Below, in pieces: positions 10,361-25,615 of a stretch of DNA of 64,000 bases (the first letter of the stretch is position 1; the number at the start of each line of letters is the position of its first letter). The notes beneath the pieces are model-generated. The model was not told the DNA's origin. It searched no databases and was given only the letters and a program-made list of their open reading frames with translations. The DNA is from Pseudoalteromonas sp. (lineage in GTDB: Bacteria; Pseudomonadota; Gammaproteobacteria; Enterobacterales; Alteromonadaceae). The DNA lies in the NCBI RefSeq assembly GCF_018402495.1, contig NZ_JAGYIU010000002.1, positions 26,984 through 90,983 on the forward strand, in the 5' to 3' direction. Position numbers and translations under genes: made by a program.

Positions 10361-10384
10361 ATTCAGTGTTAACTCACTTAATTA

Positions 10385-10600
10385 TACCGAGCTGCTTGGA
10401 TATGGGATCTATTTTGACGATAAGAAAATTGCTCTATAACTAGGCAAAATTTTTGATATTTAGTTGTTCTAAATGAAAAAGTTTAACAACGTTATAGGGT
10501 GATTTAATTCGTTAAATTGCTCAAATATTTATGCAGGTTGGAATTAACACCAATTTGCTTGGGTATGGGGTCACTTTTAACGATAAGCATGCACGTACAA
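10385..10600. repeat. intergenic repeat element, copy A (32-bp direct repeats at 10393-10424 and 10556-10587 flanking a ~130-bp body)
   Basis: tgcttggatatgggatctattttgacgataag and tgcttgggtatggggtcacttttaacgataag flank a body that aligns by eye with 25425-25615. Confidence 0.5.
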
Positions 10601-10606
10601 AGCCAA

Positions 10607-10637
10607 TAAAAAAGCCTACATCATTTATGTAGGCTTT
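10607..10637. terminator. bidirectional terminator between the mrp operon and recR
   Basis: Hairpin gcctaca-tcatttat-gtaggc, with A7 upstream (a T-run for minus-strand recR) and TTT downstream. Confidence 0.65.
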
Positions 10638-10671
10638 AATTTAAAGTTCAAATAGTTAGACGTAATATAAA

Positions 10672-11280
10672 CTACTCATGGCTGACTAATCGCCTACCGC
10701 TAAACGCGTGCATAAGGGTCATTCCATCCACTAAATCAAGCTCACCACCCACAGGAATACCATGCGCAATACGAGATGCACCCACCTTATTTTTATGGCA
10801 AAGCTGGGCAATATAATGCGCCGTTGTTTCGCCTTCAACCGAAGGATTTGTGGCTAAAATGACTTCATTAATACCACCTTGCGCGAGTTTTTGCTCAAGT
10901 ACATCAAGGCCAATTTCTTTTGGTCCTATGCCATCAATGGGTGATAAGTGCCCCATTAATACAAAGTAAAGCCCTTGGTATTGGCCTGTTTGCTCAATTG
11001 CCAATACATCAGTGGGCGATTCAACAACGCATAAAATACCACTGTCTTGGCGTTTTGTACTCAAGCAAATATCACACTGCGCTTGCTCGGTAAATGTACG
11101 GCACGATTGGCAATGACCAACTGCTGCCATTGCTTTAATGAGTGCATTACCAAGTTGAGCACCACCTTTACGATCGCGCTCTAACAAATGAAACGCAATA
11201 CGCTGAGCAGACTTCGGACCAATGCCCGGCTGACAACGAAGTGCTTCTATCAGCGATGTTAAACTATCTGAAAGTTGCAT
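10672..11280 (-). CDS. recR: recombination protein RecR
   Basis: 202 aa. Contains a helix-hairpin-helix ([17 protein letters not shown]-like), a C4 zinc finger (CQSC...CDIC) and a Toprim region. Confidence 0.95.
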
Positions 11281-11286
11281 AGTTGC

Positions 11287-11613
11287 TTAGAACGGCATTT
11301 TCATACCAGGTGGTAATTGCATACCGCCTGTCACTTTACTCATACGTTCTTGCGTTTCATCGGCAACACGGCGAACAGCATCGTTACAAGCTGCTGCAAG
11401 TAAATCTTCAATCATGTCTTTATCGTCTTCCATTAAGCTTTCATCAAGCTCAACTCGGCGCACGTTATGATTACCAAGCATGGTTACTTTAACTAAACCG
11501 GCACCCGCTTCACCTACAACCTCCATCGTTGCGATTTCTTCTTGGGCTTTTTGCATGCGCTCTTGCATTTGTTGCGCTTGCTTCATCATGTTACCCATTC
11601 CACCTTTAAACAT
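11287..11613 (-). CDS. ybaB: nucleoid-associated protein YbaB/EbfC
   Basis: 108 aa. [26 protein letters not shown]... is typical of YbaB. The position between dnaX and recR is conserved. Confidence 0.95.
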
Positions 11614-11673
11614 AATCGTCTCTCTTTCTTTTAATACATTAACTGAAGTATAAATAGGGGCACTGATAGTTAA

Positions 11674-14007
11674 TTACAATGCCTGGATACTGTTTTCGTC
11701 AATTTCAGCGCTAAATAGCCGTTGAAATTGTACTACATTTTCATCACGTGTGATCACATCAATCGCTTGCTGGTGACGACCGGCATCAATTTTTTGTTGA
11801 ATCAAATAAGGCGAGTCAATTACCCCACTGGCAAAGTCGATATTTAGCTCAACGTTATGGCCATAAATAGTCGATAACGCTACATTTAACTTTTGGCGCA
11901 GCATAGGCGTATCTAAGTGCTTTTGCGATTCATCCACTTCAATATGAAAATGATTATCTTGCTTGGTAAAAATTGAATGTAAGGCAAACTGGCGCATACG
12001 CCCGCCAAGCCCCATCCGTTTTATTAAGTAAGCCCACTCATCTTGTTGATGGGCAAATCTAATTTCACTGATTGGACTTTGAAAATCATCAGGCACAGGA
12101 ATACTGGGCGCTTGTTCAACAACAGGAGCTGGTTTTTGCGGATTAATTTGCTCTAATAGCTCAGGCGCTAAATGTTCAGTAATTGTTTGGTGCTTAGCTT
12201 TAAAGTCAATGTTACTCGCTGGTTTTGTTGCAACTTGAGCTTGGCTCCCTTGCGTTGGGAGCAGGGGCTTTTTTAGTAACTCATCATCCCCTTCACTCTC
12301 CCAAGGAGGCCGCTCCTTTGCTGCAGTATGACTTGTATTGCTAATCGATTTACCAATTGGCTTAGCAGGATTAGATTTTGGTGCTCTAGGTTTTTCTGTT
12401 GCTGCGCCTGATAGTTTACCCGCACCGGAAATATTTCTATCACGTAAAATACGCGCTATCGCAGACTGTGCCCGCGCTTCTTGCTCACCCATTGTTGGCG
12501 CTGAACTCTCAGTGCTACTAGGTACGTTTGATAGTTCAGGATTAAACCCTTGGTCAAGCGCGCTACTCATTACATCATCGTATTGCGCTGCAATGGTTTG
12601 TTCTACATCGCTGTACTGCATGTAGGCATCATCTTCACTTAGACGCTGCGCTTGCTCAGTACTCACTGACGGTGTACCAGTCACATGAGGCTGACTTGGT
12701 ATTGAATTTTGTTCAGTGTGAGTGGCACTATTATCTGGTTGTGAAACCTCTGGTTCAGCGGCCTCTATTGACTGTGCATTCTCTATTAATGGCTGACTTT
12801 CAGCGTTATTACTCTGCGCTGGTTTATTTTTATTTAAAATCTCACGTAATGCATTGGTACGCTTTGCGGTATTTTGCTCTGGAGCAGGTTGCGAGCTAGG
12901 TGCTGAATGCGTCGTTTGTGACTGCTCAGGTTGAAATGCTAACAATCGTAGCATAATCATCTCAAACCCTAAGCGTGGCTCAGGCGCCCACTGTAAGTCT
13001 TTTTTGCCGTTAAGTAATAACTGATAATACACCTGAATTTGCTGAGCATGAGTGTGCGCAGCAACATGCTTAATGTAGTCAGCATTATTGCTATCAAGCG
13101 CTGCCGCTTCAGGCACCAACTGGCTTAATTGAATAATATGCGTAAGTGCGATTAGGTCGTCAAGCAGTGCAATATAATTAGGATTCCTGCTCGCTACTTG
13201 GGCAACTTCGGCCATTAAGGCGCCACCATCTTGTGCAAGCAACGCGGCGAGTAAACTCTGGCTATAATGGGTATCCATTAAACCAAGCATGGCTTGAACA
13301 GCTTGATTATTAATATCGCCATTTGTTTGGGCTATAGCCTGATCGGTCAGGCTTAAAGCATCTCGCATACTGCCATCAGCGGCTTTGGCAATTATACTTA
13401 AGGCATCATTGTCATAACTGAGCTGCTCTTGCGTAAGTACATGCTCAAGCTGATGTTTAATTTCAGCTTGCGATAGCGCATTTAAATTAAACTGTAAGCA
13501 GCGCGATAAAATAGTTACCGGTAATTTTTGCGGATCCGTGGTCGCTAATAAAAACTTTACATGCTCAGGTGGCTCCTCGAGCGTTTTTAATAAGGCATTA
13601 AAGCTATGTTTTGACAACATGTGTACTTCATCGATTAAGTACACTTTATAACGTCCGCGCGTTGGCGCATATTGAACGTTGTCAAGAATTTCGCGCGTAT
13701 CTTCAACTTTTGTTCGTGAAGCCGCATCTATTTCGAGTAAATCAATGTAGCGCCCTGCTTCTATATCAACACAGCTACTACATTGACCACATGGTGTGGC
13801 TGATATACCTTCATCACAATTTAAGCTTTTTGCAAAAATGCGCGCAATGGTTGTTTTACCAACACCACGGGTTCCAGTGAATAAATAAGCGTGATGCAGT
13901 CTATTTTGAGTCAGCGCGTTTACCAGCGCTTGTTTTACATGAGACTGCCCAACCAATTCATGAAAGGTTTGAGGACGCCATTTTCTCGCTAGAACCTGAT
14001 AACTCAT
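11674..14007 (-). CDS. dnaX: DNA polymerase III subunits tau/gamma
   Basis: MSYQVLARKWRPQTFHELVGQ... with Walker A GTRGVGKTT and a zinc module. I place the start at the ATG at 14007 (E. coli-like MSYQVLARKWRP) rather than the TTG at 14010 used by the ORF track. There is a long Q/S/P/A-rich linker before the C-terminal domain. Confidence 0.95.
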   Translation of the reverse strand: MSYQVLARKWRPQTFHELVGQSHVKQALVNALTQNRLHHAYLFTGTRGVGKTTIARIFAKSLNCDEGISATPCGQCSSCVDIEAGRYIDLLEIDAASRTKVEDTREILDNVQYAPTRGRYKVYLIDEVHMLSKHSFNALLKTLEEPPEHVKFLLATTDPQKLPVTILSRCLQFNLNALSQAEIKHQLEHVLTQEQLSYDNDALSIIAKAADGSMRDALSLTDQAIAQTNGDINNQAVQAMLGLMDTHYSQSLLAALLAQDGGALMAEVAQVASRNPNYIALLDDLIALTHIIQLSQLVPEAAALDSNNADYIKHVAAHTHAQQIQVYYQLLLNGKKDLQWAPEPRLGFEMIMLRLLAFQPEQSQTTHSAPSSQPAPEQNTAKRTNALREILNKNKPAQSNNAESQPLIENAQSIEAAEPEVSQPDNSATHTEQNSIPSQPHVTGTPSVSTEQAQRLSEDDAYMQYSDVEQTIAAQYDDVMSSALDQGFNPELSNVPSSTESSAPTMGEQEARAQSAIARILRDRNISGAGKLSGAATEKPRAPKSNPAKPIGKSISNTSHTAAKERPPWESEGDDELLKKPLLPTQGSQAQVATKPASNIDFKAKHQTITEHLAPELLEQINPQKPAPVVEQAPSIPVPDDFQSPISEIRFAHQQDEWAYLIKRMGLGGRMRQFALHSIFTKQDNHFHIEVDESQKHLDTPMLRQKLNVALSTIYGHNVELNIDFASGVIDSPYLIQQKIDAGRHQQAIDVITRDENVVQFQRLFSAEIDENSIQAL
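12244..12274 (-). other. candidate programmed -1 ribosomal frameshift site in dnaX (slippery heptamer plus hairpin)
   Basis: The minus strand reads cta AAA AAG ccc, so A AAA AAG lies in the zero frame at 12268-12274. Five nt later comes the hairpin GCTCCC-aacgcaa-GGGAGC (12244-12262). The -1 frame reaches TAA after 18 codons. Confidence 0.4.
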
Positions 14008-14010
14008 CAA

Positions 14011-14556
14011 TTATTCGCCTTCAAATTCAACCAATTTTAGGATTTTAATACCCATTTTTTCAACACGCTGCTCACCACCTAGTTCAGGTAACGATACGAC
14101 GAATGCTGCATCTGTAGCGTGGCCACCTAACTTGGCAACCAGCTTTGCTGTTGCTTCGATTGTACCACCGGTGGCCAACAAATCGTCAACAAGCAACACT
14201 TTATCTCCCGCTACAATAGCATCTGAGTGTAGCTCTAGAGTGTCTTCACCATATTCGAGTTGGTAATCTTGGCGAATAACTTCGCGCGGCAATTTACCTG
14301 GTTTACGAACTGGAATAAAAGGAACACCTAAGGCATAAGATAGTGGCGCACCAAAAATAAAACCACGCGATTCTGTGCCAATAATTTTAGTAAAACCTTG
14401 ATCTTTATAAGCGTTAATAAATGCGTCTATGGTTGCTTGAAACGCTGCAGGGTTAGCCATTAGGGTTGTTACATCGCGAAACATAATGCCCGCTTTAGGG
14501 TAATCAGCAATTGTAGTAATGCTGTTTTTGATAATTGCTGGTGTTACTTGAGTCAT
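14011..14556 (-). CDS. apt: adenine phosphoribosyltransferase
   Basis: 181 aa. Contains the PRPP-binding motif [13 protein letters not shown] and an Apt-like N-terminus. Confidence 0.95.
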
Positions 14557-14710
14557 AATTTTAACTGCTCAATGATTTATATTACAAAGCAGCAGATTAT
14601 AACCTTAAGTAGGTCTAAATTGCGAGTTCGGGATGATTAAAAACGTGGAACAAAAAAATCGTGTATAAGATGTAGGACTGAAGAAAAAACAACAGTCCTA
14701 AAAAACTAAA

Positions 14711-14833
14711 TTAAGCTAATTTAGCAATCCAACCTAGTATTGCATTCAAACAGCCTATTCCAGCAAATAAAGCTAAAAATGCAAAAAAATAAGCCGCATT
14801 AAACGGATCTTTGAACTCTTTATCGTTTGACAT
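14711..14833 (-). CDS. possible 40-aa single-TM mini-protein (not in the ORF track)
   Basis: My own translation is MSNDKEFKDPFNAAYFFAFLALFAGIGCLNAILGWIAKLA. There is a weak AAGG about 10 nt upstream. It lies 72 nt downstream of the DUF2063 gene on the same strand. Confidence 0.25.
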   Translation of the reverse strand: MSNDKEFKDPFNAAYFFAFLALFAGIGCLNAILGWIAKLA

Positions 14834-14905
14834 GGGTACAACCTTTTATTAAGCACAACAAATAAAGGCGCTATAATAGACGATGTGAAATAATCAATAA
14901 AGGGC

Positions 14906-15658
14906 TTAATCTTGATTTTTTGTCACGATAATTTGGCGCTCTGCCATGGCTGTGAGAGTACTTAATGCCCCTTGAGTTATTTGTTCAAAACTAAATTGTG
15001 GCGCCTGTTCGCTAACCTGCTGACAAATATACTCGAATGTACTCCCTGCATTATTGTCAATAATAGACAACAGCAACGCAGTCATCGCGTTGGTTGTTAA
15101 AAATTGCACCTCATCGTCTTGATCCCTGTACACAACAAAATAATGGGGTTCCTCTGAGGGCTGTTGCGGTTGAAACGTTTCGCTAATATGTTGCACGGGG
15201 TAATCATAGCTTAAGTTACGTGCCGTTTTTGATAAATAGATAGAGGATTGAGTAAGCTTATTAGCAGTCAGCGGGATCTGTTGAGGATCGGCCTGAATAA
15301 CGGAAATATCAAGTTCAATCCATTCATAATGGGCCAAGGCTAACATAAATAGAGGATCAAAATCTTTGGGCACATAGCTTGTGGCTAAATAGGTAACAAA
15401 CTCTTCGGCAATGTCTAAAAAATAAGGGGATTGACAATCATGTTCGCTGAAAAATTCACGAACCAATTGCTGCCACTGTTGATCATTATATAGCGTTTTT
15501 AAAACTGGAAATGCCGATGAGACAAACCCGTTTATATTATTAAAAAAGAGCTCCCGATAAATAGCCATGCGTCTATCTTCAACATCTGCTGGACAAGGGG
15601 CCCTGTTGGGCTGGCGAATATGAGCAATAAACTCATTTTGAATATCGGAAAATCTCAT
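14906..15658 (-). CDS. DUF2063-family protein (MbnC/HvfC/BufC-like RiPP maturation partner)
   Basis: 250 aa. The N-terminus MRFSDIQNEFIAHIRQP...RRMAIYRELFFNNINGFV is typical of DUF2063. It lies immediately downstream of a DUF692 gene. Confidence 0.8.
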   Translation of the reverse strand: MRFSDIQNEFIAHIRQPNRAPCPADVEDRRMAIYRELFFNNINGFVSSAFPVLKTLYNDQQWQQLVREFFSEHDCQSPYFLDIAEEFVTYLATSYVPKDFDPLFMLALAHYEWIELDISVIQADPQQIPLTANKLTQSSIYLSKTARNLSYDYPVQHISETFQPQQPSEEPHYFVVYRDQDDEVQFLTTNAMTALLLSIIDNNAGSTFEYICQQVSEQAPQFSFEQITQGALSTLTAMAERQIIVTKNQD

Positions 15659-15712
15659 AGTTTATACTCTTTTAAAACCATACTGTTGTTATTACTAGCT
15701 GCATAGGACTGT

Positions 15713-16570
15713 TTAAGCACTTTGCTCAGTGGATAACCGCTGCAGGTGCTTTGCTTGTAATTGATGAATTATATCCAGCTCTTTAGTTAATACATTAATA
15801 GGAGGAATATTGAAATCTCGCTCTAACAGCGTCGGAAATACACCATGCCTTTGATAAGCGCTATCGAGCAACTGCCATACAGGATCAATAACATCGGCAC
15901 CGTGAGTATCTATAATCAAGTCATCGGCTTCGTTGTAATGCCCTGCAACATGGGCATAAGCAATTCGGTTAGTTGGCAATGCAGCTAAAAAGGCATGTGC
16001 ATCGTAGCCATGATTAACTGAATTAACATAAATATTATTTACATCTAGTAGTAACTGGCAATCAGCATCTTTTAAAACAGCATTCGTGAACTCAAGCTCA
16101 GATAATTGCTGACCAGGTGCACCATAATAAGACACATTTTCCAGCACCAGTGGTCGCTCTAAAATATCTTGAACTTGTTTAACCCGAGAAACAACATGCT
16201 TAACCGCATCTTCAGTGAAAGGAATAGGCATTAAATCATACATGTGCCCTTTACCTGAGCAGTAGCTTAAATGTTCGCTATAGACTTTAATATCGTGGTT
16301 ATCAAAGAAAGATTTTAACGACTTTATAAATTCAATATCGAGCGGCTCAGGCGAGCCAATAGAAAGGGATAAACCATGGCAAACAAAATGATTATTATTA
16401 GTTAATTGCTTAAACTGCTTTTCAAAACGCCCACCTAACTTTAGCCAGTTTTCTGGTGCAACTTCCATAAACTCAATTTGTTTTGGGGTGTTAGCTACAA
16501 GCTCATGGAGCATTTCTCTTCGTAAGCCTAAACCAACCATGCCAAACTTAGGCGTTTGAATATAAGCCAT
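15713..16570 (-). CDS. DUF692/UPF0276 family enzyme (MNIO, MbnB-like RiPP maturase)
   Basis: 285 aa. Contains TIM-barrel type motifs GLGLRRE, HGLSLSIGS, SEHLSY, LENVSYY, LLDVNNIYVN, HVAGH and LLERD, characteristic of DUF692. Confidence 0.85.
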   Translation of the reverse strand: MAYIQTPKFGMVGLGLRREMLHELVANTPKQIEFMEVAPENWLKLGGRFEKQFKQLTNNNHFVCHGLSLSIGSPEPLDIEFIKSLKSFFDNHDIKVYSEHLSYCSGKGHMYDLMPIPFTEDAVKHVVSRVKQVQDILERPLVLENVSYYGAPGQQLSELEFTNAVLKDADCQLLLDVNNIYVNSVNHGYDAHAFLAALPTNRIAYAHVAGHYNEADDLIIDTHGADVIDPVWQLLDSAYQRHGVFPTLLERDFNIPPINVLTKELDIIHQLQAKHLQRLSTEQSA

Positions 16571-16585
16571 AATAAAACCTCTCGA

Positions 16586-16610
16586 TAAATAAAAAGGACC
16601 AGATTGGCCC
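16586..16610 (-). terminator. weak intrinsic terminator/attenuator between precursor and maturase genes
   Basis: The minus strand reads GGGCCA-atc-TGGTCC followed by TTTTTATTTAT. It lies in the 68-nt gap after the precursor stop and before the GAGAGG RBS of the DUF692 gene. Confidence 0.4.
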
Positions 16611-16638
16611 TACAGCTTAACTTATTTAAAAGAAAAGT

Positions 16639-17121
16639 TTAGTGGTGACCACCACATTTGCCTTCGCCGCATTTCCCTTCTTTTTCGGTCTTTTCATTGC
16701 CTTTAGTCATTGCGCCGCCACATTTACCTTCCTTTTTGGCCTTTTCATTGCCTTTAGCCATTGGGCCGCCACATTTACCTTCACCGCACTTACCTTCTTT
16801 TTTGGCCTTTTCATTACCTTTAGCCATTGCGCCGCCACATTTACCTTCACCGCACTTACCTTCTTTATTGGCCTTTTCATTACCTTTAGACATTGCGCCG
16901 CCACATTTACCTTCACCGCACTTACCTTCTTTTTTAGCTTTAGCGTCACCGCCACATTTGCCTTCGCCGCACTTGCCTTCACCAGCATCTAACTGATAAC
17001 CAGCTACCATTTGTTGAAACTCAAATGGATTAGCTTGTACACCAGTACTCGCCATACTTGCACTGCCAACAACGACTGCGCCTAATGTTAATGCAATTGA
17101 GTTTTTCTTTATTGTTTTCAT
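16639..17121 (-). CDS. secreted Cys-repeat RiPP precursor (EGKCG-repeat, HvfA/bufferin-like metallophore candidate)
   Basis: 160 aa. Sec-type signal MKTIKKNSIALTLGAVVVGSASMASTGVQA, then 11 EGKCG motifs containing all 11 Cys, and a C-terminal HH. It is the first gene of the DUF692-DUF2063 operon. Confidence 0.8.
   Translation of the reverse strand: MKTIKKNSIALTLGAVVVGSASMASTGVQANPFEFQQMVAGYQLDAGEGKCGEGKCGGDAKAKKEGKCGEGKCGGAMSKGNEKANKEGKCGEGKCGGAMAKGNEKAKKEGKCGEGKCGGPMAKGNEKAKKEGKCGGAMTKGNEKTEKEGKCGEGKCGGHH
16645..16983. repeat. 66-bp tandem coding repeats (22-aa modules EGKCGEGKCGGxMxKGNEKAxK)
   Basis: Near-identical 66-bp units are visible directly, for example ggccttttcattacctttagccattgcgccgccacatttaccttcaccgcacttaccttc. 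One module is shortened to a single EGKCG. Confidence 0.9.
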
Positions 17122-17308
17122 TTTTAATTACCTTTTAAACTTGTTGAACATCATTATACAAGTAGACCTGCATAAAGCTAAAAACTTTCAAATTATCTGT
17201 TTTTCAAAAATAAGTCACTAATCTTACTATGAGCCCTAATAAGCGTTTTATCAATTTATGATTTAAAGGTAAACTGACGCTCCTTTTAAGTAATCAATTA
17301 ACCACACT

Positions 17309-18289
17309 ATGAAACTTGTTTTAGCACCTATGGAAGGTGTCGTTGATTTTAAAATGCGCCAACTACTTACCAACATAGGTGGCTTTGATCTGTGTGTGAC
17401 TGAATTTATCCGTGTTGTCGATTCTTGCCTTCCAGATAAAGTATTCCACCGTTATTGCCCCGAGCTCAAAAACGCTGGGCTAACCCAATGCGGTACGCCA
17501 GTGCGAATTCAATTACTTGGCCAAGTAGCCGGCGTGCTTGCTGAGAATGCAGTAAAAGCTGTAGGGTTAGGTTCTCATGGTGTTGACTTAAACTTTGGCT
17601 GCCCAGCAAAAACAGTGAATAAAAGCAAAGGCGGCGCCGTTTTGCTCAAAGATCCAGAACATATGTACTCAATAATTAAAACGGTAAGAGACGCCGTAGA
17701 CAGTAAACACGAGGTAAGTGCTAAAATTCGCCTAGGTTTTGATGATGATAGCAATAGCCAAGAGATTGTCGATGCTGTTGTCAGTGCCGGTGCAAGCAGT
17801 ATCGCCATTCATGCGCGAACTAAACGCGATGGCTATAACCCGCCTGCCTACTGGGAAAAAATCCCTCCTTTAGTTAAAGATAAACAAATTGCGGTTGTTG
17901 CCAATGGCGAAATTTGGCAAGTAGAAGACGCCCTTTTATGCCAAAAACGCAGCGGTTGCACCAACTTAATGATTGGCCGTGGCGCCCTTTCACATCCTGA
18001 TTTAGCTCGAAAAATTAAAGCACACGTCAACAATGAAACGTATAGTGAGTTAACGTGGGAAAATATTTTGCACCATATCATTTACTCATCTATGCACCAA
18101 ACCGCCAGTAAAGATACTAAATACTTTGCTTCACGCACAAAACAGTGGCTGGGTTATTTAAAACGCCAGTACCCACAAGCAGGATTATTATTCGACGAAA
18201 TACGCCGTTTAAAAGCAAAAGATGAAGTGGCAGAGGTATTAAAAAAATATGCCAAAGCGCCACAATTTGATACAAATCATAACATCTAA
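17309..18289 (+). CDS. dusC: tRNA-dihydrouridine synthase C
   Basis: 326 aa. MKLVLAPMEGVVDFKMRQLLT... and LNFGCPAKTVNKSKGGA match the DusC family. Confidence 0.85.
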   Translation: MKLVLAPMEGVVDFKMRQLLTNIGGFDLCVTEFIRVVDSCLPDKVFHRYCPELKNAGLTQCGTPVRIQLLGQVAGVLAENAVKAVGLGSHGVDLNFGCPAKTVNKSKGGAVLLKDPEHMYSIIKTVRDAVDSKHEVSAKIRLGFDDDSNSQEIVDAVVSAGASSIAIHARTKRDGYNPPAYWEKIPPLVKDKQIAVVANGEIWQVEDALLCQKRSGCTNLMIGRGALSHPDLARKIKAHVNNETYSELTWENILHHIIYSSMHQTASKDTKYFASRTKQWLGYLKRQYPQAGLLFDEIRRLKAKDEVAEVLKKYAKAPQFDTNHNI

Positions 18290-18348
18290 AATAATCTAAC
18301 TAGATAATAGCAGTCTCACTGAGGATTAATTTAAGGGTTTTACTGCTA

Positions 18349-18675
18349 ATGCATCATCAGCAACGACTAAACGATGAGATAGAAAGTGTTAAAGCGACCA
18401 TACTAGGCCTGCTGTCACAATCTACTCACCCTACACATCAAAACTTGCTTTGTGTTCTGACCCAAACCGCTAATGAAGACTGGCTTGATATAGCAGCGCA
18501 GCAATTAGGCACCGAGTACAATCCGTTAATTGAACGAATGAACAAGCTTGAAGCAGCAATAAGCCAAATTGATATTGGCCAGTATGGTTATTGCTGTGAC
18601 TGTGAAGAAAAAATATCAGCGCAGCGATTAGAAAAAGACCCCGCCGCGCAGCGGTGTGAACAGTGCGCTAAATAA
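18349..18675 (+). CDS. DksA/TraR-family C4 zinc-finger protein
   Basis: 108 aa with a C-terminal CxxC-N17-CxxC (CDCEEKISAQRLEKDPAAQRCEQC). Confidence 0.75.
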   Translation: MHHQQRLNDEIESVKATILGLLSQSTHPTHQNLLCVLTQTANEDWLDIAAQQLGTEYNPLIERMNKLEAAISQIDIGQYGYCCDCEEKISAQRLEKDPAAQRCEQCAK

Positions 18676-18689
18676 TAGCGCACTAAAGT

Positions 18690-19733
18690 TTAATTTAATA
18701 ATTGTGGTGCAAAACTAAACGACTGCCCCGGATAAAAAATAATATCTTCAACTAATAAAGTCGCTTCCTCTGCGCTTATATTTAATCGTTTAAGTAAATT
18801 TAAACGTGCTTGTGATAATGTCCAAGCGTGATAATGCACCCCTAGATCAGTTTCCATCATAGCCATATAAAGTAGCGCATCTGCAGGGGCTAATTGTATA
18901 GCGTTTGCACGCTGAGGTAATAACGTATAACCCGTTGACCAATCTAAACCTGCTATTTGCGAATCAATTGAAAGTAATTTGGTAAGCTGTGAGACAGTAG
19001 AAGCATATACACTTATTTGCTGTTTTTGGCTCTGCATTGTTTTAAATTTACTATCAATACGGCTCAACCATTCAAGCGGTGAGAGCACATTATTAGCAAA
19101 ATAATTTAATTTACTTTGGTACCATTGACTGCCATTGGCAAGGCCTGATAAACCAATGCTGCCTCTTGGTTTGTAGTCTGTTAGGTACTTATTTAAATCA
19201 TTTAGAGAATCGTTAAGTTCAACAGGCGTATTTGTACTCTTCATTGCATGTTGTACATAGCCTTTTAAGTAATTAAGTTCTACCTTGTTAAGCTTTAAAT
19301 TACTCTGCTCAGCATCCTTTAGTTGAGCCTTTACAAACCTTAACCACTGTTCAACTTTTTTATACTGCGCATCATTTTTAACTATCGATAGCATGTTCGA
19401 TAACACATCAATGTGTGCAGGCCAAGCAAAATAACGCTCTGGAAACCGCTCAGCAATTACCAAATAATTTACCTGATTGGTTTGCTCTGCTGATAATTGC
19501 ATCTGCATTAGCTGCTGATAAATAACGTGGCGACGCGCTAAATAGGCATCGGTAAAAGGCAGTTGCTCATTACTAAGCACGGTAACGGCTGAGTTCTCTG
19601 GTGCACTTAGAGCCGAATTAAGTGAGATTAACGCGGTTTGCGCTTCTTCATAAGATGAAAATAAATCAGTAGGCTTAGAGCAAGACACTAAAAGCAAACA
19701 AAATAGCAATGAAAAAATAGGCGTTTTGTTCAT
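18690..19733 (-). CDS. hypothetical lipoprotein (distant DUF885-like C-terminus)
   Basis: I place the start at MNKTPIFSLLFCLLLVSC (lipobox LVSC), because the longer ORF-track start runs through the upstream terminator hairpin. METDLGVHYHAWTLSQA resembles the DUF885 C-terminal motif. Confidence 0.5.
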   Translation of the reverse strand: MNKTPIFSLLFCLLLVSCSKPTDLFSSYEEAQTALISLNSALSAPENSAVTVLSNEQLPFTDAYLARRHVIYQQLMQMQLSAEQTNQVNYLVIAERFPERYFAWPAHIDVLSNMLSIVKNDAQYKKVEQWLRFVKAQLKDAEQSNLKLNKVELNYLKGYVQHAMKSTNTPVELNDSLNDLNKYLTDYKPRGSIGLSGLANGSQWYQSKLNYFANNVLSPLEWLSRIDSKFKTMQSQKQQISVYASTVSQLTKLLSIDSQIAGLDWSTGYTLLPQRANAIQLAPADALLYMAMMETDLGVHYHAWTLSQARLNLLKRLNISAEEATLLVEDIIFYPGQSFSFAPQLLN

Positions 19734-19745
19734 ATTAATTCCAAT

Positions 19746-19770
19746 AAAAAAGCCCCCAAGGGGGCTTTTT
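19746..19770 (-). terminator. rho-independent terminator of the TonB2-type operon
   Basis: Perfect hairpin aaaaagccccc-aag-ggggcttttt, just after the stop of the TPR gene. Confidence 0.75.
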
Positions 19771-19793
19771 AAAATACTAGAGTACATTAGATA

Positions 19794-21053
19794 TTAAATT
19801 TTAACACCGTTGCGAGCGGCTTTATCTTTAATATATGTAGCCCAACCTTTAGCAAACCGACGTGTGCTTGGGTCGTCCATAGCTTTAGTAATAGCAGCAT
19901 ATGCTTGCTTATACTTGCCTTGGTAGTAAAACGCTTCAGCTAAATCTGAATAAATGGTGCCTTTTTTGTCAGAGCCAAGCTCTAATGCTTTGTTCAAACG
20001 AACAACAGCAGCGCTGAATTTTTCAGATTGTAAAAGTAATGAACCTGCTTTGCGGTAAAGCTCAGCGTCGTCATCAAATTTGGCAGCTTCTTCGTAGTAC
20101 TTAGCCGCTTTCTCTATATCTTTAGAACGATGATAGTTACTCGCAATTGCACTAATATTTTGCTTGTCGCGTTTAACTTTCTGTTCTTTAATTGCCTTTT
20201 CAAGCGTTACGGCTGCTTTGTAAGGAATTTCGTTTAAAGAATAAAAGTTAGCCAAGACTTTATAGTCAACTTCGTTTTCAAAATAACCATTTTTGTACGC
20301 AACTTCCATTGTTGCTAAGCCCTTTTTGTAGTCTTCGGTTTGTAAGTAATACTTACCTAAGCCTACCCAAGATTTACTGTCTTCAGGCCATACACGAACG
20401 ATTTCCTCTGCAACTTTTACCATATTTTGATATTGCTTTTGCTCAAAATAGGCAGCCAACTTTAATTGGAAAGGCGCTTTTACCGGTGCTTTTTCAAGCT
20501 TAATCGCTTTATTCGCAGGTACGATAACGTCCTTAAATTGTTTAAGTTCGAAATTTGCTTGCGCAATACGCGTATAAACTTTCGGATCCTCCTCACCAGT
20601 GAAGTCCATCCAATCGGTATATGCTTGCTTTGCAGCACTGTATTGTTCAGTACCTGCATACAAGTCACCCAGCGTTTTTAGTCCTTGGGCATGATCGGCA
20701 AAGTTTAATACATCAGGTGCAACCGCTGCTTTCATATACTTAATGGCGTCATTATATTGCTCTTTTTGAGCATACATGCTGCCTAAGTAACGATTTACAG
20801 TTGCTTTATCAAAATCATTAGACGGATCTAACTCTCGTAATATTGCAATTGCACCGTCAACATCGTCTTCGTTATACAAGTCAAACGCTTTTATAACTCT
20901 TTTACCAATTCGCTCGCCCATGATTTTAGTTTTTGCATTTTTACGCTCTTCAATCTTTGCGTAATCAGGCTCTGCTAAAACGGGTGCAGTAAACACTGCA
21001 CCTGACATAGACATAAGAATTGCAAGCGCAGTTACTTTAGAAAAACTTCTCAT
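19794..21053 (-). CDS. TPR-repeat periplasmic protein (TtpD-like component of TonB2 system)
   Basis: 419 aa with a signal peptide and multiple TPR-like repeats. It is the last gene of the exbB-exbD-tonB cluster, as in the Vibrio TonB2 locus. Confidence 0.6.
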   Translation of the reverse strand: MRSFSKVTALAILMSMSGAVFTAPVLAEPDYAKIEERKNAKTKIMGERIGKRVIKAFDLYNEDDVDGAIAILRELDPSNDFDKATVNRYLGSMYAQKEQYNDAIKYMKAAVAPDVLNFADHAQGLKTLGDLYAGTEQYSAAKQAYTDWMDFTGEEDPKVYTRIAQANFELKQFKDVIVPANKAIKLEKAPVKAPFQLKLAAYFEQKQYQNMVKVAEEIVRVWPEDSKSWVGLGKYYLQTEDYKKGLATMEVAYKNGYFENEVDYKVLANFYSLNEIPYKAAVTLEKAIKEQKVKRDKQNISAIASNYHRSKDIEKAAKYYEEAAKFDDDAELYRKAGSLLLQSEKFSAAVVRLNKALELGSDKKGTIYSDLAEAFYYQGKYKQAYAAITKAMDDPSTRRFAKGWATYIKDKAARNGVKI

Positions 21054-21064
21054 TACTCGCCTCC

Positions 21065-21679
21065 TTAGTTGCCTTGGTTAAGTTTAAAGTCTAGTTGAAC
21101 TTGTAAACCAACTTGCTTTTGTGGTTTTCCGTCAATGATTTTAGGACGGTACTTCCACTTACGCAATGCACGTTTAGCTTCACGGTCAAAGATACGCTTT
21201 GGATCTGCGTCAATTACATCAACGTCTATCACACCACCTAACTCATCAATTGTGAATGAAAGTTGAACCCAACCTTCTCTACCATCACGTGCTGCTTGTG
21301 TTGGATATTTTGGTTCAATACGAACGATAGGTGTCGCATCACCATCTCGTCCAAATGCACCTGGACCACTTAGTCCACCTGCCGTGCTTCCCACATCGAT
21401 ACTTGGCATATTAAAAGACATGCTTGTATTTGGGTTGCTGTTTTCCGGCTGTGGCGGCTGCGGTTTAGGCGGCTGCTTTGGCGGTGGTGGAGGCGGAGGC
21501 GGTACACGCTTCCTCTCCTGCACCTTAGATTCAGGCGGATTCGTCATAATTTCGACTATGATCTGCTCTTTTTGTTCCGTATTACGGTCAGCCCCACCAG
21601 AGATGAGGTATGCCATGAAGTAGAACAAGCCGAAAGTAACTGCCCCACCTGCAATCAGTGAAAACAGAAAACGAATCAT
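21065..21679 (-). CDS. tonB: energy transducer TonB
   Basis: 204 aa. N-terminal TM, a Pro-rich spacer (PPPPPPPPKQPPKPQPPQPE), and a C-terminal TonB domain (EPKYPTQAARDGREGWVQLSFTI). Confidence 0.85.
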   Translation of the reverse strand: MIRFLFSLIAGGAVTFGLFYFMAYLISGGADRNTEQKEQIIVEIMTNPPESKVQERKRVPPPPPPPPKQPPKPQPPQPENSNPNTSMSFNMPSIDVGSTAGGLSGPGAFGRDGDATPIVRIEPKYPTQAARDGREGWVQLSFTIDELGGVIDVDVIDADPKRIFDREAKRALRKWKYRPKIIDGKPQKQVGLQVQLDFKLNQGN

Positions 21680-22083
21680 TACTGATCTCCAGCTATTGAA
21701 ATTCTCAGGTTATCACCCGTCGCTTTAATCTGGTCCATTACTTTAACCACTGTGCCGTGTTTTGCTTCTTTGTCAGCTTGCAAAATGACAACTTCAGTAG
21801 GTTGCTCTGCTAATAAGCTTTCAATTTTTGCTGAAACACGTTCAACATCAATTTGTTGCTTATCAATCCAGATTTCACCGTTGTTACGGATAGCAATAAA
21901 AATGTTAGCATTTTTTTGCTTCGTAGCTTGGGCCGCTTTTGGTTTATTGACCTCGATACCAGCCTCTTTAACGAACGATGTAGTTACGATAAAGAAAATA
22001 AGCATGATAAATACGATGTCAAGCATTGGTGTCATATCTACCGCTGCTTCTTCTTCTTCACGAAAACGTTGTTTACGTGCCAT
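21679..22083 (-). CDS. exbD: biopolymer transporter ExbD
   Basis: 134 aa. MTPMLDIVFIMLIFFIV is a typical ExbD/TolR N-terminus. Confidence 0.9.
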   Translation of the reverse strand: MARKQRFREEEEAAVDMTPMLDIVFIMLIFFIVTTSFVKEAGIEVNKPKAAQATKQKNANIFIAIRNNGEIWIDKQQIDVERVSAKIESLLAEQPTEVVILQADKEAKHGTVVKVMDQIKATGDNLRISIAGDQ

Positions 22084-22097
22084 ATTTAATTCTCTCT

Positions 22098-22622
22098 CTA
22101 GTGATGAGGCATACTATCTACAAGCTTGGCTTTCACCATTCTCGCTCTTGCCTCAAGGCGTGAGCTAAAGAATACTCCAGATAGTGCCGCAACCATTCCA
22201 GCCATTGTTGGGATTGTTGCCATTGATATGCCTGATGCCATTAAACGTGCGTTACCGGTACCTTGGGTTGCCATGGTTTCAAAAACCGCGATCATTCCCG
22301 TTACCGTACCTAACAAACCGATTAAAGGGCATATAGCTACTAATGTTTTAATCAACAACATACGCTGATCTAATTTTTCAGACGCTTCAGAAATCCATGC
22401 TTCACGGATTCTGTGTGCGTACCAAGACGTAGTGTCCTGGCGGGCATCCCACTTTGCTACAATTTCCTTCGTCATGCGAGGAAACTCAGCAAGTAAGAAC
22501 CAATAGCGCTCAATCATTAAAACCCACATCAGAAAGAGTGCTATCGCGACCACGTATAAAACCTGGCCGCCTGTGCCAACAAAATCCCTGATAGATTCCC
22601 AGATCTCCATCAGGACTAACAT
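22098..22622 (-). CDS. exbB: MotA/TolQ/ExbB proton channel protein ExbB
   Basis: 174 aa. Contains the ExbB C-terminal motif PLIGLLGTVTGMIAVF...ISMATIPTMAGM. Confidence 0.9.
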   Translation of the reverse strand: MLVLMEIWESIRDFVGTGGQVLYVVAIALFLMWVLMIERYWFLLAEFPRMTKEIVAKWDARQDTTSWYAHRIREAWISEASEKLDQRMLLIKTLVAICPLIGLLGTVTGMIAVFETMATQGTGNARLMASGISMATIPTMAGMVAALSGVFFSSRLEARARMVKAKLVDSMPHH

Positions 22623-23986
22623 TAGGCTTTCTCCTTCTCCGCGTGAGTAGCAACGATACCCGCGCTTTGCTCATCAAGGATGTGTAATACCGACTTACTA
22701 CGACCTGCAACAATAGCGTGAAGTAAAATAAGTGGTAATGCAGCAATTAGACCTAGCGCTGTAGTTACAAGTGCTAGAGAGATATTACCAGCCATAATCT
22801 TAGGATCGCCCGTACCGAACAATGTGATTGTTTGGAATGTTAAGATCATACCGATTACCGTACCTAATAAACCAAGTAATGGTGCGATAGCAGCCAAGAT
22901 CTTGATAATGTTGATACCGGCTTCAATGCGTGGTGTTTCACGTAAAATCGCTTCATCTAATTTAAGCTCAAGGTTTTCAACGTCTTGATTCTTGTTGTCA
23001 TGGTAAACTTTTAATATGCGACCCAGTGGGTTATTAGCGTTTGGCGTACCCGCATTTTTTAGTTGGCTATTAATTTTACTCTTAGTTAGAGTAAGGTCAA
23101 CAAAACGAACTAGGAAAATTAATAGACCTAAGCCTAATAATGCAGTGATGATATAGCCTACTACATCACCTTGATGATAGTACTCTGAAAGCGTTGCTTT
23201 TTGCGTGTTAATACGCAATATCGCGCCACGTGTGGGGTCTATAAAAACACCCGCGTAGTTATCAGAAGACGTATTTTCAAGATCTGAAATACCCTTTAAT
23301 ATGTAACCATCCGGTTGCTTACCTAAAGGCTGAATAGACTTAGTTTCAGCTGAATAAATCAGGTAACCGTCATCGGTAACGAGGTTAAAATTACCAATAC
23401 GCGTTACTTTTTTCATAGATGGGTTACCATCAAGGCCTGCAACTTCAGTTTCAAATGTTGAAACTTTAGCTGACTCAGTCATTTCTGTTTGAAGTGAAAT
23501 CCAAAGTTCTTCTAACTCACGAACCGTTGGAAGTTCTTTAGCCGCAGCTAATGAACGAAGTACTTCAGCACGACCTGGTTTTTCAGCACTTACTAAAGAA
23601 GCTTCAATTGAACCAATTGCATCAGCTGCTGCACGACGAACAACACCAAACATTTCACCTAACGTACCTTGAGCATTTTGAAGCGCTTGCTCTTTTTCTG
23701 CTAAGGTATTTTCGTTTTGTGCATATTCTTTACTAAGGCGATCACCACGTGCTTTTTCGGCAGCTAATTGGCTTTTTGCTTTATTAAGTAACGCTTGTTT
23801 ATCAGCACGATCTGATAAGAACTCTTGTTCACGTTGCTTGTTAAGTTTTCCTTCAGAAATACGCTCTTGCTTTACTTGCTCAAGAATTTTATCTAAAGCA
23901 TCAGTATTTGCATGTGCATTAAGCGCGGTACCGGCAGAAACAGACAGTACTGCTGCAATAGCAAAACCTTTAAATAGTTTCTTCAT
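22622..23986 (-). CDS. large MotA/TolQ/ExbB-family protein (TtpC-like)
   Basis: 454 aa. Signal peptide plus a coiled-coil periplasmic region, and a C-terminal ExbB-like channel motif APLLGLLGTVIGMILTF. Confidence 0.75.
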   Translation of the reverse strand: MKKLFKGFAIAAVLSVSAGTALNAHANTDALDKILEQVKQERISEGKLNKQREQEFLSDRADKQALLNKAKSQLAAEKARGDRLSKEYAQNENTLAEKEQALQNAQGTLGEMFGVVRRAAADAIGSIEASLVSAEKPGRAEVLRSLAAAKELPTVRELEELWISLQTEMTESAKVSTFETEVAGLDGNPSMKKVTRIGNFNLVTDDGYLIYSAETKSIQPLGKQPDGYILKGISDLENTSSDNYAGVFIDPTRGAILRINTQKATLSEYYHQGDVVGYIITALLGLGLLIFLVRFVDLTLTKSKINSQLKNAGTPNANNPLGRILKVYHDNKNQDVENLELKLDEAILRETPRIEAGINIIKILAAIAPLLGLLGTVIGMILTFQTITLFGTGDPKIMAGNISLALVTTALGLIAALPLILLHAIVAGRSKSVLHILDEQSAGIVATHAEKEKA

Positions 23987-23992
23987 TATTGA

Positions 23993-25424: not shown

Positions 25425-25615
25425 TACCAATTGCATTAAGTTAGTGATCGATTATAGCGACAAGGAAATAACCCGATAACAAGGCGAAATTATGATAGTT
25501 AGTTATTCTATATAAATAATTTTTAACGCAGGTAGCGGGTTCTTTAAATACGCTGGATTGATCATATTTTTTAATAAAATTGGTGTGGTTAGCTAATAAC
25601 GTACTTAACGCACAA
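25425..25615. repeat. intergenic repeat element, copy B (homologous to 10385-10600)
   Basis: By-eye alignment of ...cgacaaggaaataacccgataacaaggcgaaattatgatagttagttattcta... with copy A gives about two-thirds to three-quarters identity over the first ~55 nt. Confidence 0.45.

What the first reader, a model, noticed from the sequence alone, without database searches (positions are those of the whole stretch)
16639..17121. Precursor peptide is built from 22-aa/66-bp tandem modules: 11 EGKCG sites and a C-terminal HH
Seen: after a Sec-type signal (likely cleavage VQA|NP) and a short linker, the protein is almost entirely EGKCGEGKCGG doublets. These are separated by basic spacers AM(S/A/T)KGNEKA(N/K)K. 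There are five doublets and one singlet, giving 11 Cys.

The modules are near-identical at the DNA level (66-bp period). This implies recent expansion by slippage or unequal recombination. The singlet module looks like an internal 33-bp deletion.

Inference: the number of metal-binding sites is evolvable through repeat copy number, so the peptide could act as a high-capacity periplasmic metal sponge rather than a 1:1 chalkophore. The repeats also generate three long spurious ORFs on other frames and strands.
Basis: partly seen in the sequence, partly recalled or inferred. Interest (0 to 1): 0.8.

Follow-up and report, generated by a model that had tools for sequence, protein, structure and literature searches.

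The report
Repeat-built copper-binding peptide precursor HvfA
This gene encodes a secreted, cysteine-rich repeat peptide of the already described HvfA/oxazolin family, which neighbouring enzymes are expected to convert into a multi-copper binder; its repeat number does vary between relatives, but that was already known for the family.

Summary
The ORF at 16639..17121 (-) is real. It encodes a 160-aa protein with a signal peptide, 11 Cys (all in EGKCG), five doublets plus one singlet, and a C-terminal HH.

- Only three modules are 22 aa/66 bp (92-97% identical DNA). The first module has the family's usual 17-aa form (spacer DAKAKK).
- The singlet lacks 15 bp (one EGKCG unit), not 33 bp.

It is a member of the known HvfA family, also called oxazolin, Buf_EGKCG or captophorin. 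The HvfB maturase and HvfC partner genes lie directly downstream, and both score above their curated cut-offs. Published work shows that HvfBC converts each such Cys to a 5-thiooxazole and proposes about one Cu(I) bound per pair. That predicts roughly 5-6 Cu, not 11.

Module number varies widely:
- 2-24 Cys across 68 orthologues.
- 7, 8 or 9 Cys in the closest relatives.
- A different 17-aa-module allele in conspecific strains.

The 11-residue spacer is unique to this allele. Variable repeat number and a copper-storage role are already published, so this is a new member of a known kind.

Side results:
- The hvf operon is a local divergence island within the species.
- Short-read assemblies break inside hvfA.
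- A conserved bipartite promoter-like motif precedes hvfA.

The parts
16639..17121 (-). hvfA: 160-aa precursor of the HvfA (oxazolin / Buf_EGKCG / captophorin) family
   Evidence: ORF. NCBIfam NF050137 'KCGExKCG_twice' scores 66.8 bits against a cut-off of 19.5. 4533 homologues at E<=1e-5.
17032..17121 (-). Codons 1-30: Sec-type signal peptide (MKTIKKNSIALTLGAVVVGSASMASTGVQA), likely also the recognition 'leader' for HvfC
   Evidence: Read from the sequence. The x-x-A|NPF junction is conserved. Leader-like role of the signal peptide is reported for NTHi HvfA in bioRxiv 10.64898/2026.07.17.739211.
16981..17031 (-). Codons 31-47: conserved linker NPFEFQQMVAGYQLDAG
   Evidence: N31, P32, F33, G41 and Y42 are invariant or nearly invariant in a 39-sequence alignment. 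The segment is near-identical in close relatives.
16930..16980 (-). Module 1: doublet plus DAKAKK (17 aa/51 bp). This form is shared with the closest relatives.
16732..16929 (-). Modules 2-4: three 22-aa/66-bp units (doublet plus an 11-residue spacer (A/P)M(S/A)KGNEKA(N/K)K). The spacer type is specific to this allele.
   Evidence: TRF: period 66, 95% matches. Pairwise identity 92-97%, with the 33-nt doublet-coding part 100% identical. No GNEK, KGNE or AM.KG spacer in the 120 best homologues. No relative laid out has such a spacer.
16681..16731 (-). Module 5: singlet EGKCGG plus AMTKGNEKTEK (51 bp). It equals a 66-bp unit minus its first 15-bp EGKCG.
16639..16680 (-). Module 6: terminal doublet, then HH and the stop codon
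   Evidence: His occurs in the tail of 19 of 68 orthologues.
17162..17189 (-). Conserved bipartite promoter-like motif GAAAG-N16-GGTCTAC, starting 68 nt upstream of the hvfA ATG
   Evidence: Exact match. GAAA-N17-19-G(G/T)TCTA lies within 160 nt upstream of hvfA in 32 of 65 loci. Background rate is 0.0009 per 160 nt.
16585..16611 (-). Terminator-like hairpin (AGGGCCAATCTGGTCCT) plus a T-run between hvfA and hvfB. Probable attenuator that sets the precursor:enzyme ratio.
   Evidence: A GC-rich hairpin, often followed by a T-run, sits at the same position with different stem sequences in most Alteromonadales loci inspected.
15713..16570 (-). hvfB: MNIO (DUF692) maturase
   Evidence: NF003818 scores 445.1 bits against a cut-off of 360. 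PF05114 E = 8e-107.
14906..15658 (-). hvfC: RRE-containing partner protein (DUF2063 plus NGO1945_C domains)
   Evidence: NF050145 scores 305.8 bits against a cut-off of 142. PF09836 and PF22106 both hit.
16642..16996 (+). Two off-frame ORFs on the opposite strand (116 and 112 aa), plus a 93-aa ORF at 16707..16988 (-). These are by-products of the repeat, not genes.
   Evidence: Their translations are low-complexity mirror images of the repeat. The coding frame is fixed by the NCBIfam hit and the homologues.

Best explanation
hvfA encodes the precursor of an oxazolin-type (Buf_EGKCG, 'captophorin') metallophore. It forms an hvfA-hvfB-hvfC operon in a Pseudoalteromonas chromosome.

**Inferred by homology to characterised systems**
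1. In the cytoplasm HvfC binds the precursor, with the N-terminal signal peptide acting as a leader.
2. The iron enzyme HvfB oxidises each EGKCG cysteine to a 5-thiooxazole.
3. The Sec system exports the peptide and the signal is cut after VQA.
4. The Gly/Lys-rich mature chain of about 130 residues binds Cu(I) through pairs of heterocycles. That gives about one Cu per doublet, so about 5-6 Cu per molecule. It then buffers or sequesters copper in the periplasm.

**Shown here**
- The core is a tandem array whose unit number and spacer type change quickly, by gain or loss of 15-bp and 51-66-bp units.
- This allele amplified a private 22-aa unit three to four times and lost one 15-bp unit.
- Within the species, the whole operon also exists as diverged alleles. 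The pattern fits exchange by homologous recombination.
For: **Family assignment**
- HvfA-family domain, HvfB equivalog and HvfC equivalog all score above their curated cut-offs.
- Pfam hits MbnB_TglH_ChrH, DUF2063 and NGO1945_C.
- The same hvfA-hvfB-hvfC order holds in the closest relatives. In most of the 80 loci a GKCG-rich ORF lies just upstream of hvfB.

**Chemistry and metal binding (literature)**
- Six EGKCG Cys are modified, and the data were judged consistent with 1 Cu(I) per pair (PMC11252979).
- The modification was reassigned as 5-thiooxazole (bioRxiv 10.64898/2026.06.05.730506 and 10.1101/2025.11.18.689057).
- The signal peptide is needed for efficient modification (bioRxiv 10.64898/2026.07.17.739211).
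- Repeat number is variable, up to 58 Cys (PMC12452194).

**Array dynamics**
- Module layouts across relatives.
- DNA identity between units within a gene is 83-98%.
- Modules 2-4 are 92-97% identical, with 100% identical doublet-coding parts. Edge modules differ at 4-6 synonymous sites.
- The private spacer is absent from the 120 best homologues.

**Conspecific alleles**
- Flanks are 99-100% identical, while hvfABC is 86-96% identical.
- dS is 0.14-0.32 inside the operon against 0.015-0.033 in the flanks. dN/dS is 0.04-0.24.
Against: - No experiment on this protein: modification, export, cleavage site and Cu stoichiometry are all inferred.
- The strict HvfA equivalog model NF050188 scores 68 bits against a cut-off of 95. 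The protein also lacks the N-terminal Cys pair of NTHi HvfA.
- No DoxX (HvfX) gene is in the operon or anywhere in the 64-kb window.
- AlphaFold2 gave no confident fold (mean pLDDT 43.8). The published beta-helix idea is therefore not supported for this variant.
- A single-repeat minimal substrate was not modified by FonBC, so the singlet's fate is uncertain.
- The number of 66-bp units rests on one assembly. Independent short-read contigs identical to the window stop inside the array and leave 16795..16905 uncovered.
Confidence: 0.85

Rival explanations
1. The peptide is a secreted or outer-membrane-crossing copper-acquisition chalkophore, or a host-interaction factor. It would work like methanobactin or like the NTHi 'virulence factor' role, rather than as a periplasmic buffer.
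For: - Oxazolin was first described as a secreted virulence factor that binds Cu(I) (PMC11252979).
- A TonB-ExbB-ExbD cluster lies 3-7 kb away at 21065..23986.
Against: - HvfB scores 39.7 bits against a cut-off of 325 for MbnB.
- The ORF list for 12000..23000 shows no gene between hvfA and the TonB-ExbBD cluster that looks like a TonB-dependent receptor or exporter. The neighbours that were scanned gave no such hit.
- The TonB cluster is simply conserved synteny in relatives.
- A 13-kDa multi-site chain with a Sec signal fits sequestration. The related bufferins protect against copper excess (PMC11626156 abstract).
Confidence: 0.1
2. It acts as an unmodified, metallothionein-like Cys-rich periplasmic protein. 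The thiolates themselves would bind metal, or the Cys would form disulfides, and hvfBC would be irrelevant to it.
For: - Unmodified NTHi HvfA retains 2-3 Cu.
- The terminator-like hairpin between hvfA and hvfB could partly uncouple their expression.
Against: - Unmodified HvfA does not compete with BCA for Cu(I), whereas the modified form does.
- hvfA is fixed immediately upstream of hvfB and hvfC in most of the 80 loci recovered.
- Every Cys lies in the exact enzyme recognition motif EGKCG.
Confidence: 0.04
3. The array as it stands in the window is partly an assembly artefact. The true number of 66-bp units would differ, or the singlet would be a collapse.
For: - 8 of 10 conspecific short-read contigs end inside hvfA, as do 7 of 80 GTDB loci.
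- The two contigs that are 100% identical to the window leave 16795..16905 uncovered.
Against: - Modules 2, 3 and 4 each carry private substitutions, so reads of 150 nt or more can order them.
- The source contig is 961,942 bp.
- The singlet is covered by an independent identical contig, L086.
- Singlets occur in many orthologues, including the 3.34-Mb Scap03 contig.
Confidence: 0.12
4. The region is non-coding low-complexity DNA, or the real gene is one of the other-frame ORFs.
For: - Three other ORFs of 93-116 aa overlap it.
- The exact 160-aa product is absent from the 15-billion protein collection, although hvfB, hvfC and the 40-aa neighbour from the same contig are present.
Against: - Only this frame has a signal peptide, an NCBIfam hit and thousands of homologues with a conserved N-terminal half.
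- Differences between repeat units in the doublet-coding parts are all synonymous in this frame.
Confidence: 0.01

Closest known systems
Oxazolin precursor HvfA of nontypeable Haemophilus influenzae (hvfABC plus hvfX; PMC11252979)
   Same: - Sec signal peptide and repeated (A)EGKCGEGKCG doublets.
- Adjacent HvfB (MNIO) and HvfC (RRE partner).
- Expected Cys-to-5-thiooxazole conversion and Cu(I) binding by pairs.
   Different: - NTHi HvfA is 95 aa with three doublets (6 modified Cys) plus an N-terminal disulfide pair. The window protein is 160 aa with 11 Cys and no extra Cys.
- The window has 22-aa modules and no DoxX/HvfX gene.
- It scores below the strict HvfA equivalog cut-off (68 against 95 bits).
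Buf_EGKCG/oxazolin family of Leprevost et al. (PMC12452194), including Pseudoalteromonas members (P. byunsanensis WP_070991527; P. piscicida ATD05916.1 with 58 Cys)
   Same: Same genus, same operon type, a variable number of two-EGKCG repeats, and a proposed copper-storage-like role.
   Different: - The published repeat is 17 residues. Three units here are 22 residues, with an 11-residue spacer not seen in the 120 best homologues.
- AlphaFold2 gave no beta-helix for this variant.
Fontiphorin (FonA/FonBC), gonophorin and the lipoprotein NedA: other EGKCG 'captophorins' (bioRxiv 10.1101/2025.11.18.689057; PMC13056109)
   Same: EGKCG 5-mer motif, a loss of 4 Da per Cys, 5-thiooxazole chemistry, and an MNIO plus a DUF2063-type partner.
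   Different: - The architectures differ: FonA has 7 sites, and NedA has 3 sites plus a lipobox.
- The window protein has no lipobox; its first Cys is residue 51.
Bufferins Buf1 (DUF2282) and Buf2 (PMC11626156)
   Same: Sec-exported, MNIO-modified, 5-thiooxazole-bearing periplasmic copper buffers. Their MNIOs fall in the same sequence cluster.
   Different: - No DUF2282 hit for the window protein.
- The BufB model scores 273 bits against a cut-off of 310.
- Bufferins are small folded domains with few sites, not tandem arrays.
Methanobactin (MbnA/MbnBC)
   Same: A ribosomal peptide whose Cys are oxidised by a DUF692 enzyme into Cu(I)-binding heterocycles.
   Different: - The chemistry is oxazolone-thioamide, with one Cu per small peptide.
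- Methanobactin has leader-peptide export and TonB-dependent re-uptake.
- The MbnB model scores 39.7 bits against a cut-off of 325.
Csp copper storage proteins
   Same: Many Cys-derived Cu(I) sites in one polypeptide. A storage or sequestration role is proposed.
   Different: Csp proteins are four-helix bundles with unmodified thiolates. There is no sequence or predicted-fold similarity.

Membership tests
HvfA family (NCBIfam NF050137; Buf_EGKCG/oxazolin) | Repeated KCGExKCG / EGKCGEGKCG motifs scoring above the curated domain cut-off | tested here: met
   66.8 bits against a cut-off of 19.5, four stretches. 11 exact EGKCG motifs.
HvfA family (NCBIfam NF050137; Buf_EGKCG/oxazolin) | N-terminal Sec signal peptide | tested here: inconclusive
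   The sequence has the n/h/c regions and VQA|NPF, and the junction is conserved in orthologues. No signal-peptide predictor was available.
HvfA family (NCBIfam NF050137; Buf_EGKCG/oxazolin) | Encoded next to an HvfB-type MNIO and an HvfC-type (DUF2063) partner | tested here: met
   HvfB scores 445 against 360 bits and HvfC scores 306 against 142 bits. Both lie directly downstream on the same strand.
HvfA family (NCBIfam NF050137; Buf_EGKCG/oxazolin) | Cys of EGKCG converted to 5-thiooxazole (-4 Da, absorbance near 302-305 nm) | not testable with these tools
   Needs co-expression plus MS, UV and NMR.
HvfA family (NCBIfam NF050137; Buf_EGKCG/oxazolin) | High-affinity Cu(I) binding by the modified peptide | not testable with these tools
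   Needs BCA competition, native MS or ICP-MS.
HvfA family (NCBIfam NF050137; Buf_EGKCG/oxazolin) | DoxX (HvfX) gene in the cluster. This is frequent in the family but not universal ('various combinations', PMC12452194). | tested here: not met
   An HMM built from DoxX proteins of related loci finds no hit in any window ORF of 60 aa or more. Closest relatives also lack it.
HvfA sensu stricto (NCBIfam equivalog NF050188, NTHi-type) | Full-length match above the equivalog cut-off | tested here: not met
   68.2 bits against a cut-off of 95. No N-terminal Cys pair.
Methanobactin system | MbnB-type enzyme | tested here: not met
   The MbnB model TIGR04159 scores 39.7 bits against a cut-off of 325.
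Bufferin Buf1/Buf2 | DUF2282 or Buf_6/12Cys precursor with a BufB-equivalog enzyme | tested here: not met
   No Pfam hit for the precursor. BufB scores 273 bits against a cut-off of 310. The Buf_6/12Cys profile was not available.

The most novel reading that the evidence does not exclude
Copper-buffer capacity is a strain-level polymorphic trait in this Pseudoalteromonas species. The 2.5-kb orf40-hvfC-hvfB-hvfA segment appears to be swapped between conspecific strains by homologous recombination: its dS is 10-20 times that of the flanks and the edges are sharp. On top of that, the hvfA array is remodelled by gain and loss of 15-bp and 51-66-bp units. The remodelling is fast enough that conspecific alleles carry non-homologous spacer types, 22-aa AMxKGNEKxxK here against 17-aa (D/N)AK(A/G)KK elsewhere. 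Expression would come from a conserved, possibly ECF-sigma-type, promoter (GAAA-N17-19-GGTCTA) shared across Alteromonadales.
Probability: 0.4. Interest if true: 0.45.

Novelty: new member of a known kind. Interest (0 to 1): 0.27.

Why it matters
- **Annotation.** The locus can be annotated with confidence as hvfABC. The exact 160-aa precursor sequence is missing from a 15-billion-protein collection that does hold its three neighbours.
- **A natural test series.** Close relatives and conspecific strains form an allelic series: 7, 8, 9 and 11 Cys, 17-aa against 22-aa modules, and singlets at different positions. This could be used to test whether Cu(I) capacity scales with the number of doublets, and whether singlets are modified at all. 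Both questions are left open in the oxazolin and fontiphorin papers.
- **A practical warning.** Short-read assemblies break or may collapse inside hvfA. Published Cys counts for this family are partly lower bounds.

Tried and rejected
1. **Structure.** AlphaFold2 on a 39-sequence alignment gave mean pLDDT 43.8 and pTM 0.13, with the repeat region unstructured. No fold search was attempted.
2. **RNA elements.** An Rfam scan of 14000..17400 at E<=1 found nothing.
3. **The 40-aa ORF after hvfC as a fourth hvf component replacing DoxX.**
   - It is present after hvfC in about 55 of the 83 hvf loci then in hand.
   - hhalign against DoxX gives probability 1.6%.
   - In Vibrio and Grimontia the same mini-ORF lies upstream of DUF454-apt-dnaX with no hvf genes nearby.
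   - It is therefore an apt-locus gene, and the idea is rejected.
4. **Off-frame ORFs in the protein collection.** My references for the two + strand ORFs were mis-trimmed and have non-ATG starts, so that part is void. The - strand 93-aa ORF and an alternative Met23 start of HvfA are absent from the collection.
5. **Which conspecific hvfB allele is the import.** Both are equally distant from the outgroups, so this is undecided.
6. **Second match of the promoter-like motif at 59376..59403.** It lies inside an ABC-permease gene and has one mismatch, so it is treated as chance.
7. **sigma-70 promoter scan.** The number of hits did not exceed shuffled expectation: 8 against 9.3.

Full report
**What is in the sequence**

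The minus-strand ORF 16639..17121 encodes 160 aa: MKTIKKNSIALTLGAVVVGSASMASTGVQA|NPFEFQQMVAGYQLDAG, followed by a repeat core. Writing D for EGKCGEGKCGG and S for EGKCGG, the core reads:

D-DAKAKK-D-AMSKGNEKANK-D-AMAKGNEKAKK-D-PMAKGNEKAKK-S-AMTKGNEKTEK-D-HH

- All 11 Cys lie in exact EGKCG motifs.
- The predicted mature chain is 130 residues: 34 Gly, 28 Lys, 17 Glu, 11 Cys.
- Tandem Repeats Finder reports period 66 at 16724..16935 (3.2 copies, 95% matches, score 389) and period 51 at 16665..16782.
- Three further ORFs of 93-116 aa overlap in other frames and on the other strand.

- Only modules 2-4 are 22 aa/66 bp. Their pairwise identity is 64/66, 63/66 and 61/66, and their 33-nt doublet-coding parts are 100% identical.
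- Module 1 is a 17-aa/51-bp unit with spacer DAKAKK.
- The singlet module is 51 bp, so it lacks 15 bp (one EGKCG), not 33 bp. Its codons (GAAGGTAAATGTGGC) are those of the second half of a doublet, so the first 15-bp unit is the one missing.

**What it is**

The precursor passes the curated cut-off of the NCBIfam HvfA-family domain NF050137 (66.8 against 19.5 bits). It does not pass the strict NTHi-type equivalog NF050188 (68 against 95 bits).

The next two genes on the same strand are:
- hvfB at 15713..16570: HvfB-family MNIO maturase, 445 against 360 bits, and Pfam MbnB_TglH_ChrH.
- hvfC at 14906..15658: HvfC-family maturation protein, 306 against 142 bits, with DUF2063 and NGO1945_C domains.

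The MbnB, BufB, ApyH and ChrH models all score below their cut-offs.

The window's exact HvfB sequence is WP_213608514.1 from a Pseudoalteromonas sp. contig of 961,942 bp. Its 90% cluster includes P. haloplanktis, P. tetraodonis and other Pseudoalteromonas strains.

**How it most likely works (inferred from the characterised family)**

- In NTHi, HvfBC modifies the six Cys of three AEGKCGEGKCG motifs, with a loss of 4 Da each. The authors judged their data consistent with 1 Cu(I) per pair of modified residues. The unmodified peptide does not compete with BCA for Cu(I) (PMC11252979).
- The modification has since been reassigned from oxazolone/thioamide to 5-thiooxazole. The group is now collectively called captophorins (bioRxiv 10.64898/2026.06.05.730506 and 10.1101/2025.11.18.689057).
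- HvfBC prefers the precursor with its Sec signal peptide attached, so the signal acts like a leader (bioRxiv 10.64898/2026.07.17.739211). This fits the strong conservation of the N-terminal half here: N31, P32, F33, G41 and Y42 are invariant or nearly so in 39 sequences.
- By homology I expect cytoplasmic modification, Sec export, cleavage after VQA, and about 5-6 Cu(I) per chain (five doublets plus an odd heterocycle).
- A sequestration role has already been proposed for EGKCG peptides. The family has been described as 'reminiscent of copper storage proteins' (PMC12452194).

**Other anatomy of the locus**

- A GC-rich hairpin plus T-run lies between hvfA and hvfB at 16585..16611. A comparable hairpin, with different stem sequences, recurs at that position in most Alteromonadales loci examined. 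I read it as an attenuator that raises the precursor:enzyme ratio. This is inference.
- A bipartite motif GAAAG-N16-GGTCTAC begins 68 nt upstream of the ATG, at 17162..17189. The degenerate form GAAA-N17-19-G(G/T)TCTA lies within 160 nt upstream of hvfA in 32 of 65 loci, spanning Pseudoalteromonas, Shewanella, Rheinheimera, Paraglaciecola, Lacimicrobium and Neptunicella. The background rate is 0.0009 per 160 nt.
- From memory, this motif resembles ECF-sigma promoters such as sigma-E type GAACTT-N16-TCTGA. That is a lead only and was not tested.
- There is no DoxX gene in the operon or in the window.

**Is module number evolvable?**

Across species (80 hvfB-anchored loci from GTDB species representatives):
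- The 68 full-length hvfA genes, counting the window and L081-L083, carry 2-24 Cys, most often 12.
- Modules range from 10 to 26 or more residues, and singlets recur.
- Units within one gene are usually 83-98% identical in DNA while spacers differ between species. That is the signature of ongoing unit turnover or concerted evolution.

In the closest relatives (N-terminal 47 codons 90-95% identical; neighbouring genes 80-88% identical; same synteny exbBD-tonB-TPR-dksA-like-dusC | hvfABC-orf40-apt-dnaX):
- They have 7, 9 and 8 Cys, built only from 17-aa DAKAKK modules.
- The window's first spacer is that shared DAKAKK. Its 11-residue spacer appears in none of the 120 best homologues.
- The 22-aa unit is therefore specific to this allele and was amplified here.
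- The edge doublets differ from the internal ones at 4-6 synonymous sites, as expected if the internal units are younger.

**Within the species**

Proteins identical to the window's Apt and DksA-like products led to ten Logan/ENA contigs.
- Two contigs from SRR14300309 are 100% identical to the window but stop inside the array. They leave 16795..16905 uncovered.
- The other contigs are 99-100% identical to the window in apt, dnaX, dusC, the dksA-like gene, the TPR gene and tonB. Identity drops to 86-96% between about 14600 and 17150, with sharp edges.
- dS values are: hvfB 0.28, hvfC 0.14, orf40 0.29 and the hvfA N-terminus 0.32. The flanks give apt 0.015 and dusC 0.033. dN/dS is 0.04-0.24.
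- Those contigs carry a different hvfA allele: S-NAKGKK-D-DAKAKK-D-NAKAKK-D-N..., ending ...AKK-D-HH or ...D-DH.
- High synonymous divergence under purifying selection, confined to the operon, points to allele replacement by homologous recombination rather than in-situ positive selection. Which allele is the import could not be decided.
- 8 of these 10 contigs end inside hvfA, as do 7 of the 80 GTDB loci. The repeat breaks short-read assemblies. Copy numbers from such assemblies, including the middle of this window's array, need long-read confirmation.

**Comparison with what is known, and novelty**

- The gene is a member of the published Buf_EGKCG/oxazolin family.
- Variable repeat number (31-506 aa, up to 58 Cys in P. 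piscicida) and a copper-storage analogy are already in print (PMC12452194). That paper does not mention slippage or recombination.
- The following appear to be new here but are modest:
  - the 22-aa module variant;
  - the DNA-level evidence for unit turnover;
  - the conspecific divergence island;
  - the conserved upstream motif.
- AlphaFold2 gave no confident model (mean pLDDT 43.8). The published beta-helix could be neither supported nor excluded for this variant.

**Side lead followed and closed**

- The conserved 40-aa ORF after hvfC (14711..14833) recurs after hvfC in about 55 of the 83 hvf loci then in hand. Its family comprises 264 clusters, all annotated as hypothetical.
- It is unrelated to DoxX.
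- In Vibrio and Grimontia it sits upstream of DUF454-apt-dnaX without any hvf genes. It therefore belongs to the apt neighbourhood, not to the hvf system.

**Verdict**

- This is a new member of a known kind. Interest is low to moderate.

Noticed in passing
window 14711..14833 (-): A 40-aa single-TM mini-protein (MSNDKEFKDPFN..., WP_301003320.1, 'hypothetical') is conserved across Pseudoalteromonas, Shewanella, Rheinheimera, Vibrio and Grimontia. The family has 264 clusters, with no Pfam or NCBIfam model. It is linked to the apt-dnaX locus, not to hvf, and is unrelated to DoxX.
   Followed up: yes
window 14834..14905: The 72-bp intergenic region between hvfC and the 40-aa ORF is 94-99% identical to other species (L081, L082), whose flanking genes are only 80-88% identical. 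This may be a promoter or regulatory element for orf40/apt. No Rfam hit.
   Followed up: partly
window ~14600..17150: Relative to conspecific contigs, the orf40-hvfC-hvfB-hvfA segment is a divergence island. It is 86-96% identical against 99-100% in the flanks, and dS is 10-20 times higher with low dN/dS. This suggests recombinational allele replacement.
   Followed up: yes
L001, L002, L015, L022, L025, L071, L072; L084-L091: Short-read contigs end inside hvfA: 7 of 80 GTDB loci and 8 of 10 conspecific Logan/ENA contigs. The repeat is a systematic assembly breakpoint, so database copy numbers may be truncated or collapsed.
   Followed up: yes
window 17162..17189 (-) and the region upstream of hvfA in 32 of 65 loci: A conserved bipartite motif GAAA-N17-19-G(G/T)TCTA lies upstream of hvfA across several Alteromonadales genera. 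From memory it resembles ECF-sigma promoters. The sigma factor is not identified.
   Followed up: partly
window 16639..17121 (-): The exact 160-aa HvfA sequence is absent from the 15-billion-protein collection. HvfB, HvfC and the 40-aa ORF of the same 961,942-bp contig are present with NCBI accessions. The precursor was probably not called in the source annotation.
   Followed up: partly
window 1..64000: No DoxX/HvfX homologue is found anywhere in the window. More distant hvf loci (L026, L057, L070, L071, L079) do carry a DoxX gene next to hvfABC.
   Followed up: yes
window 19794..23986 (-): A TPR protein-TonB-ExbD-ExbB-ExbB-like cluster lies a few kb from hvfA and is syntenic in relatives. 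No functional link to hvf was examined.
   Followed up: no
window 18349..18675 (+): A 108-aa DksA/TraR-type zinc-finger protein scores well below the DksA equivalog cut-offs (39 against 115 bits). It is conserved next to dusC in relatives. Its function is unknown.
   Followed up: no
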